A stretch of 64,000 nucleotides of DNA from a virus (taxonomy: Duplodnaviria > Heunggongvirae > Uroviricota > Caudoviricetes): the IMG/VR virus record IMGVR_UViG_2880395615_000008; one strand, written 5' to 3'. Below the pieces are notes generated by a model. The model worked only from the letters and a program-made list of their open reading frames with translations. It was not told the origin of the DNA and made no database searches. This document shows positions 1,575-59,903 of this stretch, one piece after another. The translations under genes were made by a program, and so were the position numbers. Numbering within the stretch: the first letter of the stretch is position 1; each line of letters opens with the position of its first letter.

Positions 1575-4025
1575 TTAAAAATCAGCCTGATTCGGGAGCA
1601 GTTTTTGCCAGATAGTTGAAACGTATTTTGCCTGGTAACGGGCATCATCCAGCGCATTGTGGCGCTCACCTTCGAATGGGATAGCAGTTCTGGCATCGAA
1701 GTCTACGGCTTTCCCCAGCTCAACGATTGTGCGTACATCGCGATCGTTGCAGTAGCGCCACGGGCAGGGGATACCCTGTCGTTCGTATGAACGGCGCAAA
1801 ATAGTGTTGTCGAAGTTGGCCCCATTACCCCAGACCTGAACAAAAAACTCACCGGAGTTTTCGTCGATAAATTCCCGCAATTGCAGTAGTGCATCATCTA
1901 ACGGGATTTCATCGGTCATAATGGCAGACTGCGCTTCACGTGATTGCTTCAGCCACCATTTAATGACGTCACGATCAATGACTCCGCCAGCAGTATCCAG
2001 ATCGATGGTCTTGCTAAATTCTGGTCCCATATCTCCGGTTTGCGGATCGAAAAATATTGCGCCTATTGAGATAATCGGGGCATCGGGATTTTTTCCCATG
2101 GTTTCAAGGTCGATCATCAGATGAATCCCCGCTCTGCTGGTGGATGTGAGATTATGATGACTGTTCGCCTTAATTAAGGGATCTGACGCCTCGCCAGTTT
2201 CACTATCGCTGGCATGATGCTGATTGCCGCCAGTGTTCTCCTTGTGCTGATGTGCAGTACCTTCCATTTCCTCCGGATCATTTTCCTGAACTTCAGGCTG
2301 ATTCTCTTCATCGAATATTTCCTGGTATGTTGCGTCGCCCATCACCGCGCCACAATCAGGGCAGTTGCCGCCGCCGGTCTGACCGCAGGCGGTGCAGACT
2401 TTTTCCACTTCCTGTTGCGCCACTGGTTCAGGCTGTTTCGTTTCTGGCTCGTTTTGTAACGCATTTGGGCTGTTCTGTTCCGTTTCTTGCTGGTTCTGGT
2501 TCACAGAATCGCGGGTTTCAATCCCCTTCACCCATTTCGGATCATTCGGGTCGCTAATCCCTGCAACAAATTCACCACGTGATGCGGCGAGCAACTGATT
2601 GGCGTCAGGCTGGCTGATATTGGCTGCCTGCATAATTTTCTTTACTTCGTCAGCGGTAACTTTTACCGGTTCTGGTTGTTCAGAATTTTGTGCGGTATTT
2701 GCATTTTGCGGTAAGCCTGTGTATGTGCCATTTTTTCGGGCAAAATATTCTTCTTTTGTGATTTCAGTAGCCCCGGCAGCCAGCGCCTTATCCAGACCAG
2801 AAAGTTTGTTTGCGCGACCGTATTTTTCGCAATCCTTGTCGGTGAAGAGGAAGTAGAACGGCCCCTCACGCTCTACAGATGGTTCGACTTCCACTTTGCA
2901 TTCGGTTTTTTCGTTGTCCGGAATTGCCGTTTCCACTGCATCAGTTTCTGGTACTGGCGACGAGAGAGTGTCAGTTGCGCTCTGATTTGTTCCTTCATCT
3001 TCAAACACGCCCTTTGTAGTCAGGTATTCAGTAATGTATTTGTTCAGTGCCACAGGGTCTTTGTGAATGTCGATCGGACGTTCACGGACAAGGCCAAAAA
3101 TAGTCTGGCGGTCGTAGCGAAGGGCATCAGGCTGTTTGCGCATTGATGCCGAGATACGCTTCCAGTCTTCGCGGTCGTTGTCGATAACTTCATTTTTTGC
3201 CCAGCGATGGATGCTGCCGTCAATGTTTCCGGCATCCACATCACCAGGCCAGAGAGCGTAGGCCAGTTCGTCATCCAGTGTTTTCCATGTCTGCTTATAT
3301 TCGCGACGAATGACTGCAGTGACAGGGGGGATTTTTTCTGCTGAGTTTTCAGTGTGCTGTCGGTGGACTCTGGCGCGGGCGAGATCAACAACAGACGTGT
3401 ATTTTCCGGTTTCCTTGCGTTCACCTTCGCGACGTTTTTTCCAGATGCGCATTTCTGCCTGAATTTCGGGCCATTTGGCACCAGGCTTACATTTATGCTT
3501 AACCCACCCGATGGCATGCAGCTTAAGCTCCGGATACATGGCGTTAACTTCTGGCATTTTCATCAACGCTTCAACGATATGTCCGTCGAATGTTGCCATG
3601 TCTTCCTGCAACAATTCCTGCGCGCTAATCACCATATCAACGGTGATGTTTTCACATGTGTCGAACTTAACCATGACAGCGTTCTGTACTTCAGGGGCCA
3701 GCTTGTCAAAAGCGACGTTCATCGGATCTGATTCAGTCTCAACCGGGACAAAGGAAGCAGCCCCCTCATCCCAGCGGTTTTCCTGCATATATTCAGCATC
3801 CCAGGAATCGAGGGCAGGGCGGGGTATACCGGGTTTATCCTCGCAAACAAGAAATTTATAAGCGCAGTCCTGAGCAGCCGGATAATGCTCCAGGAATTGC
3901 CAGTGAAATTTTGCGCGGGCGCGACGTTCATCACCGGCTTCAATGGCAGTGGCTACAGCGACTGCACCTTCTTCCTTTATTGCCTGTTCGTCCGGAATGG
4001 CGGCGCAAATAAAGACTTTACTCAT
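1575..4025 (-). CDS. Large exonuclease-like early protein with C-terminal DEDDh (DnaQ-like) 3'-5' exonuclease domain and a CxxC...CxxC zinc-ribbon
   Basis: 816-aa ORF. C-terminal about 200 aa carries [10 protein letters not shown] and HNALDDA motifs; [16 protein letters not shown] zinc-ribbon. C-terminal third near-identical to 55820..58264, N-terminal half unrelated. Confidence 0.6.
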   Translation of the reverse strand: MSKVFICAAIPDEQAIKEEGAVAVATAIEAGDERRARAKFHWQFLEHYPAAQDCAYKFLVCEDKPGIPRPALDSWDAEYMQENRWDEGAASFVPVETESDPMNVAFDKLAPEVQNAVMVKFDTCENITVDMVISAQELLQEDMATFDGHIVEALMKMPEVNAMYPELKLHAIGWVKHKCKPGAKWPEIQAEMRIWKKRREGERKETGKYTSVVDLARARVHRQHTENSAEKIPPVTAVIRREYKQTWKTLDDELAYALWPGDVDAGNIDGSIHRWAKNEVIDNDREDWKRISASMRKQPDALRYDRQTIFGLVRERPIDIHKDPVALNKYITEYLTTKGVFEDEGTNQSATDTLSSPVPETDAVETAIPDNEKTECKVEVEPSVEREGPFYFLFTDKDCEKYGRANKLSGLDKALAAGATEITKEEYFARKNGTYTGLPQNANTAQNSEQPEPVKVTADEVKKIMQAANISQPDANQLLAASRGEFVAGISDPNDPKWVKGIETRDSVNQNQQETEQNSPNALQNEPETKQPEPVAQQEVEKVCTACGQTGGGNCPDCGAVMGDATYQEIFDEENQPEVQENDPEEMEGTAHQHKENTGGNQHHASDSETGEASDPLIKANSHHNLTSTSRAGIHLMIDLETMGKNPDAPIISIGAIFFDPQTGDMGPEFSKTIDLDTAGGVIDRDVIKWWLKQSREAQSAIMTDEIPLDDALLQLREFIDENSGEFFVQVWGNGANFDNTILRRSYERQGIPCPWRYCNDRDVRTIVELGKAVDFDARTAIPFEGERHNALDDARYQAKYVSTIWQKLLPNQADF

Positions 4026-4117: not shown

Positions 4118-4363
4118 TTAAAGACCTGCCGGGATTTCGTTATTATCCTGGTGAATAACTTTATCGACCGGGTAACAGTTACCGGGAATTTTCTGTTCGG
4201 TTGCTGCAGTCACACACTCCTGCATTGTCCTGTGAACACTGACTGCAATATCAACTGGCTCTCCGGAAACAAGAAAAACTGTCAGAACAAGTGCAAATGC
4301 TGTATTCATTGCCAGCATCCTTTTTGTATCGGACGTAAACGGGCCAGCATTGAAAGAATGCAT
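4118..4363 (-). CDS. Hypothetical small protein with hydrophobic N-terminal segment
   Basis: 81-aa ORF (AFALVLTVFLVSGEP); diverged homologue at 58357..58545. Overlaps dicB 3' end. Confidence 0.35.
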   Translation of the reverse strand: MHSFNAGPFTSDTKRMLAMNTAFALVLTVFLVSGEPVDIAVSVHRTMQECVTAATEQKIPGNCYPVDKVIHQDNNEIPAGL

Positions 4364-4494
4364 ATTTTATTTAATAACTCCCGTTCGTGTTTTCTCTTGT
4401 TAATGGCATCTTCAGTAAATACAGGGTTACTGATAGTGACACCAATTTCAAAACAACCTTCAGACGTATTAACGTTTGGTAATAACGTTTCCAT
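4306..4494 (-). CDS. dicB: Cell-division inhibitor DicB homologue (62 aa from internal Met of ORF 4306..4599)
   Basis: METLLPNVNTSEGCFEIGVTISNPVFTEDAINKRKHERELLNKICILSMLARL... matches remembered Qin DicB; sits directly 3' of a DicF-like sequence as in the dicBF operon. Confidence 0.7.
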   Translation of the reverse strand: METLLPNVNTSEGCFEIGVTISNPVFTEDAINKRKHERELLNKICILSMLARLRPIQKGCWQ

Positions 4495-4663
4495 TATCGC
4501 GTCCTCAACAATGAATTTTGTGATGCGGTGCCTGGTGCCTCCAGGTGACGTTAACCAGTTAACAATTAACGCCGGATACAGTGAATCCCCCCATAACACT
4601 GTTTTTAGCTTTAACTGTTCCGCGTGCGCTTAGCCGCATTCACTGCATCACAAAATTCACTTT

Positions 4664-4719
4664 AAAAAGGGCGGACATCAGTTCATGGGCAAACAGATGC
4701 CGCCAAACGTCACCAGAAA
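4664..4719 (-). ncRNA. dicF: DicF-like small RNA, divergent variant
   Basis: Minus strand reads TTTCTGGTGACGTTTGGCGG-CATCTGTTTGCCCATGAACTGATGT-CCGCCCTTTTT: conserved DicF 5' end and terminator stem, replaced central/3' body. Confidence 0.55.
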
Positions 4720-5052
4720 ATTGATAACAGAGGGCGTTGCAGCGGGGTTGTCACTTAAGCGTATGGTCAACCTGACAACCCGGTGTCCTCAACGGGGAAG
4801 GAATAACCCCGCCATACTTACCGCTGCGCCATTTCGCGGAGTGCCACAACCGGAAGCGCACGGTCGACGAAAATTTAACGACAGGCTATCTATGAACCAG
4901 CAACCTCGCCGTGCGCTTTCGCGTTATGCTCTGACTTTTCAGAGAAATATCCTTTCAGTAAACTGTCAGTGCCGGATGTTCACCCGTGTCCGGCGCACGC
5001 ACTCCACTTCACCCGTGGAGAACTCCTTAATTACCAACCCTCAGGAGGGTGA

Positions 5053-5286
5053 ATGTTAAAATCAACTCTTATTGCTAAATGCCTTTATCAAAATCGCATG
5101 GTAAGCAGCATTTCAATAGGCGAGTCTGCAGTTAAAAGTATTTTCGAAGAGTACTTTCCCGGGCATGATTTTAATAAATGGAATACCAAATTACCGCCAG
5201 CAGTTTCAACGCGTATTCTGAAAGCAACCGAAAGAGCAAGTACAATTCGCGTTAACTATTTCATTAAAGATTTGTGGGATCTTTGA
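5053..5286 (+). CDS. Hypothetical 77-aa protein, AT-rich moron antisense to the leftward early operon
   Basis: ORF preceded by aggagg Shine-Dalgarno (ccctcaggagggtgaATG); visibly AT-rich; converges on ORF 5264..5671. Confidence 0.4.
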   Translation: MLKSTLIAKCLYQNRMVSSISIGESAVKSIFEEYFPGHDFNKWNTKLPPAVSTRILKATERASTIRVNYFIKDLWDL

Positions 5287-5671
5287 TATCCACAGAGCCT
5301 AAAGTATGTGCATATGGATGTGCTATTATGCGCCCTCGCAGATTTGCATCATTTTCTAAATTCACTGAACGAAACAGGGCATCAACAAGGCTCTGTACAA
5401 TGCAAAGGCAATCGAAGACTGTCGCCGTTTCTGTTTTGATTGATGAAAGAACATGGCCATTCACGCAAACAGAAATTACCCGTTTATTAACATCGCTTTC
5501 CTGCTTTTGATTATCAGAACCATATAGCCCAGAAAAAGCATTGCGCACATTACGAACCATATTATCGATGGTTTCTTTTTCTGCGGTACTAAGGTCAAGA
5601 GTAGCCAGTTGTGAACGAACTATATTCGATGCCATTTCCTGTAATGGCGTTGGTAAATCTTTAAATTCCAT
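5264..5671 (-). CDS. Hypothetical early-left operon protein
   Basis: 135-aa ORF; N-terminal about 45 aa shared with 59586..59903 (MEFKDLP...NIVRSQLATLDLST), then diverges. Confidence 0.45.
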   Translation of the reverse strand: MEFKDLPTPLQEMASNIVRSQLATLDLSTAEKETIDNMVRNVRNAFSGLYGSDNQKQESDVNKRVISVCVNGHVLSSIKTETATVFDCLCIVQSLVDALFRSVNLENDANLRGRIIAHPYAHTLGSVDIKDPTNL

Positions 5672-5693
5672 TATTAGCCTCGTTGGTTAGCTA

Positions 5694-5912
5694 TTAACGT
5701 GGGTATGTAATCATTCTGGCAATGCTTAATGCCGCTGCTTTTTCCAGATTGGTGATATCCTGCTCCAGAGCGGACAGATTTTCAGCCTGCTTAGCCCTGG
5801 CTTCATTGGCCCATTTCAGGTCCTGCACCGCCTTAATTTTCTGGTGCATCCACTCATAAAGTTCATCATCGGTATAGTCTGGCGCGATGATGACGGGGTC
5901 TCGTTTCTGCAT
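5694..5912 (-). CDS. Hypothetical early-left operon protein (72 aa)
   Basis: ORF in operon context only. Confidence 0.35.
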   Translation of the reverse strand: MQKRDPVIIAPDYTDDELYEWMHQKIKAVQDLKWANEARAKQAENLSALEQDITNLEKAAALSIARMITYPR

Positions 5913-6548: not shown

Positions 6549-6956
6549 TTATTTATTTGCGCTTCTTTTGCGAGCTTTGAGTAGTTCTTCAAAAAGTTTG
6601 TTGAAATTCTCAACTCGAGCACGCATCTCTGACAACAGAGCCTTTTGCTCTGACTCAGGCAGTGCGTCGAACAGTTGAAGCAACTCTTTTTGATCTTCTG
6701 TCAGATTGACTGGCTGATTATCTGGGATCGGTTCGCCTGGTTGCTTATCTTCATCTCCAAAAAGAAGCCAAGTCGGCGAGCACTGAAGCGCCTGGCTCAG
6801 TGCGAATAATCTCTTCCCCGCTGGCTGTGTTTCATCTCTTTCCCATTGAGAAATTGTTACGTGAGCCACTTTGACCAGCTTACCTAATGCGGCCTGAGAC
6901 AGTTTTAATTTTTTTCGCCTGTATAAGAGGCGAGCACCGAAGGTTTCGTTTTTCAT
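6549..6956 (-). CDS. Prophage repressor, HTH XRE family (DicA-like)
   Basis: 135 aa; N-terminal HTH (LKLSQAALGKLVKVAHVTISQWERDETQPAGKRLFALSQALQCSPTWLLFGDEDKQP) resembles remembered DicA; divergent from Cro-like gene. Confidence 0.75.
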   Translation of the reverse strand: MKNETFGARLLYRRKKLKLSQAALGKLVKVAHVTISQWERDETQPAGKRLFALSQALQCSPTWLLFGDEDKQPGEPIPDNQPVNLTEDQKELLQLFDALPESEQKALLSEMRARVENFNKLFEELLKARKRSANK

Positions 6957-58545: not shown

Positions 58546-58730
58546 TGCTGCCCTCCGAAAATGCCAAGTTCAAGAAGGGCAATTCTGGAGAGTATGGAAT
58601 TATCATTGAGAAGATAAGGCTCATATTTTCTCATCCTGATGGCGTCTTCAGTAAACTCCCGGTTACTGAGCAGAATACCAATATTAAAACACCCTTCAGA
58701 CGTATTAACGTTTGGTAGTGACGTTTCCAT
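58542..58730 (-). CDS. dicB: DicB-like cell-division inhibitor, diverged C-terminus
   Basis: METSLPNVNTSEGCFNIGILLSNREFTEDAIRMRKYEPYLLND...; N-terminal half conserved with prophage 1 copy. Confidence 0.6.
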   Translation of the reverse strand: METSLPNVNTSEGCFNIGILLSNREFTEDAIRMRKYEPYLLNDNSILSRIALLELGIFGGQQ

Positions 58731-58899
58731 TATCGCGTCCTCAACAATGAATTTTGTGATGCGGTGCCTGGTGCCTCCAGGTGACGTTAACCAGTTAACA
58801 ATTAACGCCGGATACAGAGAATCCACCCATAACACTGTTTTTGGTTTTAACTGTTCCGCGTGCGCTGAGCCGCATTCACCGCATCACAAAATTCACTTT

Positions 58900-58957
58900 A
58901 AAAAGGGCGGCAGAGCAGCCACGGAGTAAAACTGATACCGCCAAACGTCACCAGAAA
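58900..58957 (-). ncRNA. dicF: DicF small RNA (canonical-type)
   Basis: Minus strand reads TTTCTGGTGACGTTTGGCGGTATCAGTTTTACTCCGTGGCTGCTCTGCCGCCCTTTTT, about one substitution from remembered K-12 DicF. Confidence 0.8.
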
Positions 58958-59293
58958 ACTGATAACAGAGGGCGTTGCAGTGGGGTTGTCACTTAAGCGT
59001 ATGGTCAACCTGACAACCCGGCGTCCTCAAGGGGGAACAGAATAACCCCGCCACACTTACCGCCGCGCCATTTCGCGGATTGCCACAACCGGAAGCGCAC
59101 GGTCGAACTAAATTTAACGACACCGTACAGAGAGACCAATTTCGCCGTGCGCTTTCGTGTTATGCCCTGACTTTTCAGGGAAAGAGCCTTTCAGTAAACT
59201 GTCAGTACCGGATTCTTATCCGTGTCCGGCGCACGACCACACGTGACAGCGTGTTGGTCTCCATTTTTAACCCAGCCCTTAATGGAGGATAAA

Positions 59294-59599
59294 ATGCACT
59301 CTAAATCAATCAATCGATATTATGTCCATGTGCAGTTATTTGAAGCAACAATGGAACAGGAGAAAAAGTTCGAGACTCTGATGCCAAATTTTAAATACTC
59401 CAGGATGATTAATGAAGGTGACATTGAATATAAATTATTGCCAGGGGCATACGTTATTCAGTCAACGCTTAATGCGAATCAAATACTTGAACAAACCTTT
59501 TCTATTGCTAATTCAGTTGGTGCTAATGCTCACATTTTTGTTTGCCCTTATGATGAAAGTGCAACCCTTTTGCCTTGTGCTGATTTTAGCACTTACTAA
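59294..59599 (+). CDS. Hypothetical 101-aa protein, AT-rich moron antisense to leftward operon (prophage 2)
   Basis: ATG preceded by ggagg (aatggaggataaaATG); visibly AT-rich; converges on 59586..59903; unrelated in sequence to the equivalent ORF at 5053..5286. Confidence 0.4.
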   Translation: MHSKSINRYYVHVQLFEATMEQEKKFETLMPNFKYSRMINEGDIEYKLLPGAYVIQSTLNANQILEQTFSIANSVGANAHIFVCPYDESATLLPCADFSTY

Positions 59600-59903
59600 C
59601 TAAATTTAATTTATGTTCAAGTTCGGCTATTTGCATACGTAGTGCTTTAACCATTGTTTCATGATAAATCTCACTCACTCCACCTGGGTGTGGGGTGAAT
59701 TTAGGTGAATCATCTTTGTTTTCAGAACTCAGATTCTCTTCGTACAGCTTAATAAAGGAATTACGCACATTATGGGATATATTGTCGATGGTTTCTTTTT
59801 CTACGGTACTCAGGTCAAGAGTCGCCAGTTGGGAACGAACTATATTCGCTGCCATTTCCTGGAATTGCATTGGTAAATCTTTAAATTCCATCGTCAACCT
59901 CAT
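59586..59903 (-). CDS. Hypothetical early-left operon protein
   Basis: 105-aa ORF sharing N-terminus with 5264..5671. Confidence 0.4.
   Translation of the reverse strand: MRLTMEFKDLPMQFQEMAANIVRSQLATLDLSTVEKETIDNISHNVRNSFIKLYEENLSSENKDDSPKFTPHPGGVSEIYHETMVKALRMQIAELEHKLNLVSKC

What the first reader, a model, noticed from the sequence alone, without database searches (positions are those of the whole stretch)
5053..5286. Same dicF-adjacent slot in prophage 1 holds a different antisense AT-rich ORF
At the position equivalent to 59294-59599, prophage 1 carries an unrelated 77-aa ORF, also antisense, also with an aggagg ribosome-binding site and AT-rich. Two unrelated cargo genes at one conserved location in two otherwise homologous arms indicate an exchangeable moron slot, the pattern seen at phage defence hotspots.
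Basis: partly seen in the sequence, partly recalled or inferred. Interest (0 to 1): 0.6.

Follow-up and report, generated by a model that had tools for sequence, protein, structure and literature searches.

The report
Two-gene insert in variable prophage slot
The 77-codon ORF is a real, conserved phage gene of unknown function that travels with an oppositely oriented partner gene and sits in a spot where related E. coli prophages carry many different small genes or none, so it is a good but unproven candidate for a gene that helps the lysogen against other phages.

Summary
Window 5053-5286 (+) is a 77-aa ORF with AGGAGG 4 nt upstream and 36% GC. It runs against the minus-strand early-left (dicBF-type) operon of an E. 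coli O157:H7 prophage, 335 nt from a DicF variant. Homology between the two arms breaks around it and around the unrelated ORF at 59294-59599.

It is a real gene: pN/pS is 0.31 in its own frame, homologs in many Enterobacterales are almost all 77 aa, and the model is a five-helix bundle at pLDDT 97. It has no Pfam, PADLOC, PDB or BFVD relative outside its own family.

Window 5040-5673 is a precise 634-bp insertion relative to K-12 Qin. It holds ORF77 and the 135-aa minus-strand gene. The C-terminal ~75 aa of that gene accompany ORF77 homologs in at least ten genera, convergent, with 3' ends overlapping by 20-51 bp, mostly 23.

The slot is hypervariable. Of 115 usable loci, 48 had intact cargo in 14 unrelated families, and 57 were empty. 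Rac sieB and e14 ymfI occupy the same architectural position.

A defence role is plausible but untested. My preferred mechanism is a lysogen-expressed antisense protein countered by a partner expressed on induction. That is inference, at about 0.35.

The parts
5053..5286 (+). ORF77: 77-aa protein-coding gene (WP_000920491, phrog_10348), predicted five-helix bundle
   Evidence: Purifying selection in its own frame.
5043..5048 (+). Shine-Dalgarno AGGAGG, 4 nt before the ATG. It is part of the insertion and is absent from empty loci.
5264..5671 (-). 135-aa gene of the early-left operon: a conserved N-domain plus the ORF77-associated partner domain
5267..5491 (-). Partner domain (aa 61-135). It is homologous to stand-alone 69-87-aa proteins that lie convergent to ORF77 homologs in other genera. 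It carries the conserved tail LExEANxxGKTIxH.
   Evidence: The AF2 model is poor, with a disordered tail.
5519..5671 (-). N-domain (MEFKDLP..., aa 1-51). It is shared by proteins with many different C-termini and is the right-hand recombination anchor.
5264..5286 (.). 23-bp overlap of the two convergent 3' ends, the same 23 bp (26 in the 78-aa forms) in most related loci of other genera
5040..5673 (.). 634-bp two-gene insertion relative to K-12 Qin and to empty IMG/VR loci
   Evidence: GC about 0.40.
4925..5039 (+). Conserved leader upstream of the cargo ORF. On the minus strand it is the start of the long untranslated region that precedes DicF. It is the left-hand recombination anchor and holds a sub-threshold -35/-10 (TTTTCA-17-TAAACT, 4936-4964).
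   Evidence: The promoter is not supported by the scan.
4669..4718 (-). DicF sRNA variant
   Evidence: 43.5 bits, E = 7.9e-8, below the gathering score of 48.
4306..4494 (-). dicB (cell division inhibitor), downstream gene of the operon
5694..5912 (-). ydfC, the upstream neighbour. In empty loci its 3' end abuts the leader.
59294..59599 (+). Sibling cargo in prophage 2: 101-aa YmfI-like ORF (phrog_8894)
59586..59903 (-). Sibling sense gene in prophage 2 (105 aa): the same N-domain with a YmfJ-like C-terminus, overlapping ORF101 by 14 bp

Best explanation
ORF77 is a genuine small phage protein of about 77 aa, predicted as a five-helix bundle with no known relatives. It is half of a mobile two-gene cassette. 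The other half is the C-terminal ~75-aa domain of the convergent minus-strand gene, here fused to a conserved N-domain. The cassette is a 634-bp insertion between ydfC and the untranslated leader of DicF in the early-left operon of a lambdoid prophage. That place is hypervariable among E. coli prophages, and it corresponds architecturally to sieB in Rac and ymfI in e14.

The following mechanism is inferred, not shown. The partner lies in the repressor-controlled early-left transcript, so it is made only on induction or infection. ORF77 is read from the opposite strand, from its own signals, and can therefore be made in the lysogen. Convergent transcription with overlapping 3' ends makes the two expression states mutually antagonistic. 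The conserved, disordered tail of the partner binds and neutralises ORF77. The lysogen thereby carries an ORF77-dependent activity, most likely exclusion or abortion of superinfecting phages, that the prophage switches off for itself when it is induced.

Sub-confidences: real gene 0.95; co-inherited convergent pair 0.85; hypervariable slot 0.95; direct ORF77-partner interaction 0.45; anti-phage role 0.3.
For: Coding and conservation. pN/pS is 0.31 in frame against 1.0-1.6 in four other frames. Of 33 homologs, 20 are exactly 77 aa, at 55-72% identity, in Klebsiella, Dickeya, Xenorhabdus, Salmonella, Morganella, Yersinia and Serratia. The wider family has 163 clusters in 1.84 billion representatives. 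The AF2 model has pLDDT 96.8.

Pairing. Of 87 ORF77 loci parsed, 79 show a convergent partner with a 23- or 26-bp overlap. The Proteus partner, which starts at GTG, was confirmed separately. All 7 partner-anchored loci from Erwinia, Citrobacter, an Enterobacter-like host and Pectobacterium hold an ORF77-family gene. A distant member, P0164, has a partner with a 20-bp overlap.

Insertion. The break against K-12 Qin is precise.

Slot diversity..

Architecture. Rac has racR-ydaG-ydaF-sieB(+)-kilS-kilR. e14 has ymfK-ymfJ-ymfI(+).

Own promoter outside E. coli. TGnTAnnnT lies at -43 to -39 in 10 of 10 leaders.

Analogy for expression. On SOS induction of e14, ymfJ rises by log2 4.8 and ymfI by only about 1-2 (PMC11002266).

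Partner tail. It is conserved but predicted disordered.

Decay pattern. ORF77 is frameshifted while the partner stays intact in L089 and L170. The partner domain is kept without ORF77 in the 201-aa variant. No intact ORF77 of the enterobacterial subfamily was seen without a partner.
Against: There is no functional data of any kind. ORF77 and the partner match nothing in PADLOC, Pfam or NCBIfam. No credible sigma-70 promoter was found upstream of ORF77 in the E. coli copies, so expression in the lysogen is an assumption. One distant family member (P0212, possibly also P0168) has no recognisable partner. Within E. coli, co-variation of cargo with the sense-gene C-terminus may be plain linkage between two recombination anchors. 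The cargo proteins are much smaller than typical defence systems.
Confidence: 0.35

Rival explanations
1. The pair is a toxin-antitoxin-like addiction or stabilisation module. One protein is harmful and the other neutralises it. Its role is to keep the prophage, or to kill cells in which early-left expression goes wrong, not to exclude other phages.
For: The two small genes are tightly co-inherited. The partner is predicted as a short beta hairpin, a helix and a conserved disordered tail, which resembles many antitoxins. ORF77 decays while the partner is retained. A parE/paaA2 pair sits nearby in a related prophage.
Against: The genes are convergent and not co-transcribed, unlike type II systems. 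Neither protein matches a toxin or antitoxin family. No DNA-binding domain was detected in the partner. ORF77 is found on only one plasmid record.
Confidence: 0.2
2. ORF77 is a regulator of the prophage's own development. Its transcription and protein modulate the early-left operon (DicF, DicB, the partner gene) by convergent transcription or antisense pairing. It has no role against other phages.
For: ORF77 lies antisense within the transcript that is processed to DicF. Its leader is complementary to the start of the long untranslated region upstream of DicF. The leader is conserved across cargo types. DicB and DicF are toxic and their expression is tightly restrained (PMC10448788 abstract).
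Against: Unrelated proteins occupy the same place, and many prophages have none. That is hard to reconcile with an essential regulatory role. The ORF77/partner pair also occurs where Rfam detects no DicF. Protein-level selection shows that the product matters, not only the act of transcription. The SD-sequestering hairpin in the leader is not significant for the window copy (P = 0.29).
Confidence: 0.2
3. The cargo is an ordinary small early gene used in lytic growth, for host takeover or anti-defence. It merely happens to be on the other strand. The diversity reflects the usual mosaicism of lambdoid early regions.
For: Early-left regions of lambdoid phages are full of small, variable accessory genes. 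The cargo proteins are 57-101 aa, a size typical of phage anti-defence and takeover proteins. No promoter is evident in E. coli.
Against: The antisense orientation inside a strong early operon is conserved for all cargo types. That is the arrangement of known lysogen-expressed genes such as sieB. In e14, ymfI is not induced along with ymfJ.
Confidence: 0.2
4. The ORF is a chance reading frame in AT-rich filler.
For: It is short, AT-rich, annotated only as hypothetical, and matches no Pfam family.
Against: pN/pS is 0.31 in frame only. Length and N-terminus are invariant across genera. It matches phrog_10348 over its full length. The confident fold prediction also argues against chance.
Confidence: 0.02

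Closest known systems
sieB of the Rac prophage and phage lambda/P22 (superinfection exclusion protein B)
   Same: The architectural position and orientation match. It is a gene read against the early-left operon, lying between the small genes next to the repressor and the sRNA and cell-division inhibitor (kilS/kilR in Rac, DicF/dicB here). Its 3' end overlaps the preceding sense gene. From my own knowledge, in lambda and P22 sieB is expressed in the lysogen, and P22 escapes its own SieB through Esc and an antisense RNA. That resembles the self-immunity logic proposed here.
   Different: There is no sequence similarity: SieB is phrog_6399, 162 aa, with membrane segments, while ORF77 is phrog_10348, 77 aa and soluble. 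The partner here is a separate protein domain on the other strand, not an internal product of the same gene.
Morons of lambdoid phages (the concept of Juhala/Hendrix)
   Same: It is a precise insertion between genes that are adjacent in related prophages, with a presence/absence polymorphism and lower GC than its surroundings.
   Different: The unit is two convergent genes, one of which joins the host operon. An own promoter and terminator are not demonstrable in the E. coli copies.
Prophage and satellite defence hotspots (P2/P4, Rousset et al. 2022, PMC9122126) and BstA with cognate self-immunity (Owen et al. 2021, from my own knowledge)
   Same: Conserved flanks surround highly diverse cargo, in a position close to the immunity region. 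The proposed logic is a lysogen activity that the prophage can switch off for itself.
   Different: The cargo here is single ORFs of 57-148 aa of unknown function, not recognisable multi-gene defence systems. None matches PADLOC convincingly. No phenotype is known.
ymfI/ymfJ of the K-12 prophage e14
   Same: It has the same convergent sense/antisense arrangement next to the repressor. It is the direct relative of the sibling cargo at 59294-59599 and its sense partner.
   Different: It is unrelated in sequence to ORF77 and its partner. The function of YmfI and YmfJ is also unknown.

Membership tests
PHROG 10348 (phage protein family of unknown function) | Full-length match to the family profile | tested here: met
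   E = 1.1e-47, residues 1-77 against profile positions 1-77 of 77.
SieB superinfection exclusion (phrog_6399 / Pfam SieB) | Sequence match to the SieB profile | tested here: not met
   ORF77 gives no hit in Pfam or in PHROGs other than 10348. Rac SieB does hit phrog_6399, at 5e-70.
SieB superinfection exclusion (phrog_6399 / Pfam SieB) | Position and orientation: antisense in the early-left operon, between the repressor-proximal genes and the division inhibitor | tested here: met
   Comparison of the window with K-12 Rac.
SieB superinfection exclusion (phrog_6399 / Pfam SieB) | Aborts the lytic growth of superinfecting phages | not testable with these tools
   Needs plating assays.
Moron | Insertion between genes that are adjacent in related phages (presence/absence polymorphism) | tested here: met
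   A 634-bp insertion relative to K-12 Qin and to L182/L184. 57 of 115 loci are empty.
Moron | Nucleotide composition differs from the neighbours | tested here: inconclusive
   The insertion is about 40% GC against 51% for the window and 52-54% for the leader, but nearby dicB is equally AT-rich.
Moron | Own promoter and terminator, expressed from the repressed prophage | tested here: inconclusive
   No promoter passes the scan upstream of 5053. An extended -10-like motif is present only in the non-E. coli homologs. A weak terminator-like hairpin lies at 5717-5744. Expression cannot be tested here.
Known anti-phage defence systems (PADLOC-DB v2) | Match to a defence protein model | tested here: not met
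   ORF77 and the 135-aa protein match no family.
Defence hotspot (conserved flanks, diverse cargo that includes known defence genes) | Diverse unrelated cargo between conserved flanks | tested here: met
   14 families among 48 intact cargo ORFs, plus further types from other samples.
Defence hotspot (conserved flanks, diverse cargo that includes known defence genes) | Known defence genes among the cargo | tested here: inconclusive
   There is only a weak SLATT hit (E = 0.002), a GhoS-like hit at the Pfam cutoff, and SieB at the analogous place in Rac, which has different flanks.
Type II toxin-antitoxin | Two adjacent genes co-transcribed as one operon | tested here: not met
   The genes are convergent with overlapping 3' ends.
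Type II toxin-antitoxin | Match to a known toxin or antitoxin family | tested here: not met
   No match in Pfam, NCBIfam, PADLOC or PDB.

The most novel reading that the evidence does not exclude
The dicF-adjacent (sieB-equivalent) slot of enterobacterial lambdoid prophages holds a whole class of convergent two-protein switches. Each has a small antisense protein made in the lysogen and a cognate sense-strand module made on induction. ORF77/partner and YmfI/YmfJ are two examples. These switches would provide phage exclusion with built-in self-immunity through an architecture not described for defence systems.
Probability: 0.2. Interest if true: 0.75.

Novelty: new variant of a known kind. Interest (0 to 1): 0.5.

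Why it matters
The flanks of this slot occur in 4422 of 5426 complete E. coli genomes, with a median of two copies per genome, and the ORF77 cassette itself in 644 of them. These include O157:H7 and O121 prophages that sit next to Stx2a phages. The slot concentrates at least 15 families of small proteins with no known function, at the place where the only characterised occupant, SieB, excludes other phages. If the antisense proteins act in the lysogen and the sense modules counter them, the locus would be a compact, easily testable source of new phage-phage interference mechanisms. It would also be a new example of self-immunity wired into the lysis-lysogeny switch. The cassettes are inserted into the precursor of DicF, so they may also affect DicF and DicB expression, which matters for EHEC physiology.

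Tried and rejected
1. ORF77 as a chance frame: rejected by pN/pS and by length conservation.
2. ORF77 as a SieB, lipoprotein or membrane protein: no profile match, and the model is a soluble helical bundle.
5. Structure of the 135-aa protein: pLDDT 44, which is unusable for a fold search.
6. A conserved SD-sequestering hairpin in the leader: the anti-SD complement varies along with the SD (CTCCT/AGGAG, CTCCAT/ATGGAG, TCTTGG/CCAAGA). However, per-sequence shuffles give P = 0.02-0.86, and 0.29 for the window copy. Fold z-scores are -0.4 to -2.6. This is not claimed.
7. DicF next to the pair in other genera: Rfam gave no hit at E <= 0.01.
8. Universality of the partner: it is absent next to at least one distant family member.
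9. Literature: the accession returned nothing, and no paper held here describes this slot.

Full report
WHAT IS THERE. The window is E. coli O157:H7; the 1.1 kb around the finding is 100% identical to strains TR01, PV15-279 and others. Prophage 1 is the one integrated next to ompW, called 'PPompW' in GenBank phage records. Its early-left operon runs on the minus strand. In order it holds an HTH repressor (6549-6956), a hypothetical gene, ydfC (5694-5912), a 135-aa hypothetical gene (5264-5671), a DicF variant (4669-4718), dicB (4306-4494), a DUF1482 gene, an exonuclease, xis and int. The DicF variant scores 43.5 bits, E = 7.9e-8, just under the Rfam gathering score of 48.

The finding is the only plus-strand gene in this stretch. 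It spans 5053-5286, encodes 77 aa and starts at ATG, with AGGAGG at 5043-5048. PGAP annotates it as hypothetical protein WP_000920491. Its GC is 36% against 51% for the window. The whole 5000-5700 tract and dicB are similarly AT-rich.

The two prophage arms align at 4390-4999 = 58626-59235 and at 5534-5671 = 59754-59891, both at 88%. Nothing aligns in between. ORF77 and the 101-aa ORF at 59294-59599 are unrelated: BLASTP gives E = 0.24, and they belong to PHROGs 10348 and 8894. The variable segment is larger than the ORFs. It also includes the 3' part of the minus-strand gene on the right.

IT IS A REAL GENE. The first search returned 33 homologs, 20 of them exactly 77 aa. At 55-72% identity they come from Klebsiella, Dickeya, Xenorhabdus, Salmonella, Morganella, Yersinia and Serratia, and they share an invariant N-terminus, MLKSTLIAKCL. 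Among nine diverse DNA sequences, pN/pS is 0.31 in the annotated frame. Four of the other frames give 1.0-1.6. The fifth gives 0.42; it is the reverse frame that shares wobble positions with the annotated one. A profile search of 1.84 billion representative proteins finds 163 clusters, nearly all 74-80 aa. None of ten distant members tested reaches a Pfam cutoff.

THE CARGO IS A CONVERGENT GENE PAIR. In Dickeya and Serratia prophages the ORF77 homolog again lies against the early-left operon. There it overlaps, by exactly 23 bp, the 3' end of a 77-79-aa minus-strand gene. That protein is homologous to residues ~61-135 of the window's 135-aa protein.

I parsed 87 loci that hold an ORF77 homolog. 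In 79 of them a convergent partner overlaps by 23 bp, or by 26 bp in the 78-aa forms. The exceptions are frameshifted or truncated ORF77 copies and one distant marine homolog. Proteus, which the script missed, has a partner that starts at GTG.

The reverse test gives the same answer. A profile of the partner domain finds 107 clusters, adding Hafnia, Erwinia, Pectobacterium, Citrobacter, Enterobacter, Leclercia, Providencia and Raoultella. All seven loci fetched from four of these groups contain an ORF77-family gene, at 29-66% identity, convergent to the partner. Gene callers had missed two of them. A distant family member, P0164, also has a partner, with a 20-bp overlap. At least one other distant member, P0212, does not.

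The partner domain occurs alone (69-87 aa) or fused to various N-termini. These include two kinds of MEFKDLP domain, a Cys-rich 156-aa form and a 193-aa form. Its AF2 model is poor, at pLDDT 44. The secondary structure reads as a hairpin, a long helix, then a tail that is predicted disordered although it holds the most conserved motif, LExEANxxGKTIxH.

THE PAIR IS AN INSERTION. The window aligns with K-12 Qin and with 'empty' IMG/VR loci up to 5039 and again from 5674 (5655 for the IMG/VR loci). In K-12 the two subject coordinates are adjacent, at 939 and 940. So 5040-5673 is a 634-bp insertion. It carries ORF77 with its SD, and the 135-aa gene with its start region. It sits between ydfC and what the DicF literature calls the long untranslated region that contains dicF (PMC5069750).

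THE SLOT IS HYPERVARIABLE. I anchored first on the N-domain, using 80 IMG/VR loci. The sense gene ends in at least six different C-termini (101-212 aa). The antisense strand holds ORF77, the YmfI-like ORF, a 148-aa two-TM protein, a 91-aa ORF, a 73-aa ORF, a 69-aa ORF, or nothing.

I then anchored on a 16-mer of the conserved leader, which is an unbiased sample of 120 loci:

| State of the slot | Loci |
|---|---|
| Intact cargo ORF (14 unrelated families, 57-101 aa) | 48 |
| Empty, leader abuts the ydfC 3' end, as in K-12 | 42 |
| Empty, leader abuts the end of a 124-aa N-domain gene | 15 |
| Frameshifted cargo, TTG start or a different junction | 10 |
| Too short to score | 5 |

A further type is a 201-aa sense protein that keeps the partner domain. 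It replaces ORF77 with a 63-aa ORF plus a 66-aa sense extension, again with a 23-bp overlap.

Cargo family and sense-gene C-terminal type go together almost one to one. Within E. coli this could be plain linkage between two recombination anchors, the leader and the N-domain. For two pairs, however, the association holds on unrelated backgrounds. One is ORF77 with its partner, as described above. The other is the YmfI-like ORF with a YmfJ-like C-terminus, found both in the window's prophage 2 and in K-12 e14.

WHAT IS KNOWN AT THIS POSITION. K-12 Rac has the same architecture: racR, ydaG, ydaF, sieB (plus strand, with a 4-bp 3' overlap with ydaF), the kilS sRNA, then kilR. In e14, ymfI lies convergent to ymfJ next to the repressor ymfK. 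K-12 Qin is an empty example. SieB is the only occupant with an assigned function (phrog_6399).

Among the other cargo, the 148-aa protein gives a weak SLATT hit (E = 0.002). A relative of the YmfI family reaches the Pfam cutoff for GhoS (21.2 bits against a cutoff of 21). Everything else is unknown. No paper in the library describes this slot.

EXPRESSION SIGNALS. No sigma-70 promoter passes the scan upstream of 5053. The best candidate is a sub-threshold TTTTCA-17-TAAACT at 4936-4964, in the conserved leader. All ten non-E. coli leaders examined carry an extended -10-like TGnTAnnnT at -43 to -39 from the ATG. None of the E. coli leaders does. So the family has its own promoter-like element elsewhere, but the E. 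coli copies remain unresolved.

A possible SD-sequestering hairpin changes in step with the SD, but it is not statistically supported for the window copy.

By analogy, SOS time-course data for e14 show ymfJ rising by log2 4.8 late in the response and the YmfJ protein detected. ymfI rises by only about 1-2 (PMC11002266).

HOW IT MOST LIKELY WORKS. This section is inference. The partner is part of the repressor-controlled early-left transcript and should be made only on induction or infection. ORF77 is read from the other strand and can be made in the lysogen. The conserved 3' overlap means that each transcript runs into the other gene, so the two states antagonise each other. The conserved disordered tail of the partner is a plausible binding motif for the ORF77 bundle.

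The decay pattern points the same way, although the numbers are small. ORF77 is frameshifted while the partner stays intact in L089 and L170. The partner domain is kept without ORF77 in the 201-aa variant. The reverse was never seen in the enterobacterial subfamily. This suggests that ORF77 is the active, dispensable component and the partner is the protective one.

I therefore favour a lysogen activity that the prophage neutralises for itself on induction, most likely interference with superinfecting phages. Position and logic are those of sieB. I put this at about 0.35.

The rivals are:
- a TA-like stabilisation pair (0.2);
- a regulator of the prophage's own early-left, DicF and DicB expression (0.2);
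- an ordinary lytic accessory gene (0.2);
- a chance ORF, which is excluded.

VERDICT. The 'exchangeable slot' interpretation is confirmed and extended: the unit is two genes, there are at least 15 cargo types, empty states exist, and the position is equivalent to sieB and ymfI. The 'defence' interpretation remains a reasonable but untested hypothesis. The gene itself is an annotated hypothetical in a known PHROG. What is new is the definition of the slot and of the convergent pairs.

Noticed in passing
window 4669-4718 (-): A DicF variant scores 43.5 bits (E = 7.9e-8), below the Rfam gathering score of 48. The default scan therefore reports only the prophage-2 copy at 58905-58956.
   Followed up: yes
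window 5519-5671 (-) and 59754-59891 (-); loci L007-L086: The MEFKDLP N-domain of about 50 aa is shared by proteins with many unrelated C-termini (101-216 aa). It behaves as a conserved recombination anchor or adaptor. Its function is unknown.
   Followed up: partly
window 59294-59599 (+) and 59586-59903 (-); L297:4998-5585: The sibling cargo is a YmfI-family protein (NCBIfam 107 bits, below the cutoff of 140). Its sense neighbour ends like YmfJ of e14. A 94-aa relative in the same PHROG reaches the Pfam cutoff for the GhoS endoribonuclease.
   Followed up: partly
L173:3001-3775 (also L174, L175): A 201-aa variant keeps the partner domain but continues into a 66-aa extension. That extension overlaps, again by 23 bp, a different 63-aa antisense ORF. 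This looks like nested replacement of ORF77 by another cassette.
   Followed up: partly
L025:3454-3900 (-): One alternative cargo is a 148-aa protein with two predicted membrane segments and a weak SLATT match (PADLOC RTasSLATT, E = 0.002).
   Followed up: no
Leaders of L002, L003, L087, L155-L157, L162, L165, L168, L169 (-43 to -39 from the ATG): An extended -10-like motif, TGnTAnnnT, lies at a fixed distance upstream of every non-E. coli ORF77 homolog examined. It is absent from all E. coli leaders of this slot.
   Followed up: partly
window 5717-5744 (+): A weak terminator-like hairpin followed by a T run lies on the cargo strand inside the 3' end of ydfC. In empty loci it sits about 70 nt downstream of the leader, so a short antisense RNA could be made there.
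   Followed up: no
window 5021-5039 and 5655-5673: The homologies to empty loci L182 and L184 overlap by 19 bp at the insertion junction. This suggests an imperfect short direct repeat or microhomology at the two ends of the 634-bp insertion.
   Followed up: no
L301-L307, L003-L006: In many non-E. coli prophages the partner/ORF77 pair lies directly downstream of the cI-like repressor gene, the neighbourhood where rexAB and bstA-type genes sit in other phages. In L003 a 307-aa gene lies between the repressor and the pair.
   Followed up: no
window 32552-32674 and 44806-44928 (-); 11836-11985 (+); 16283-16455 (+); 15270-15342 and 15436-15509 (+): Rfam finds two identical isrC copies 12 kb apart, a sok antitoxin RNA, STnc100 and two tRNA genes elsewhere in the window.
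   Followed up: no
L306:about 3300-3360 (+): Downstream of the ORF77 leader in an Enterobacter-like prophage there is a hairpin plus T run (TTTGGCGGCATCTG...GATGCCGCAATTTTTTT) that resembles the 3' stem of DicF. Rfam did not call it.
   Followed up: partly
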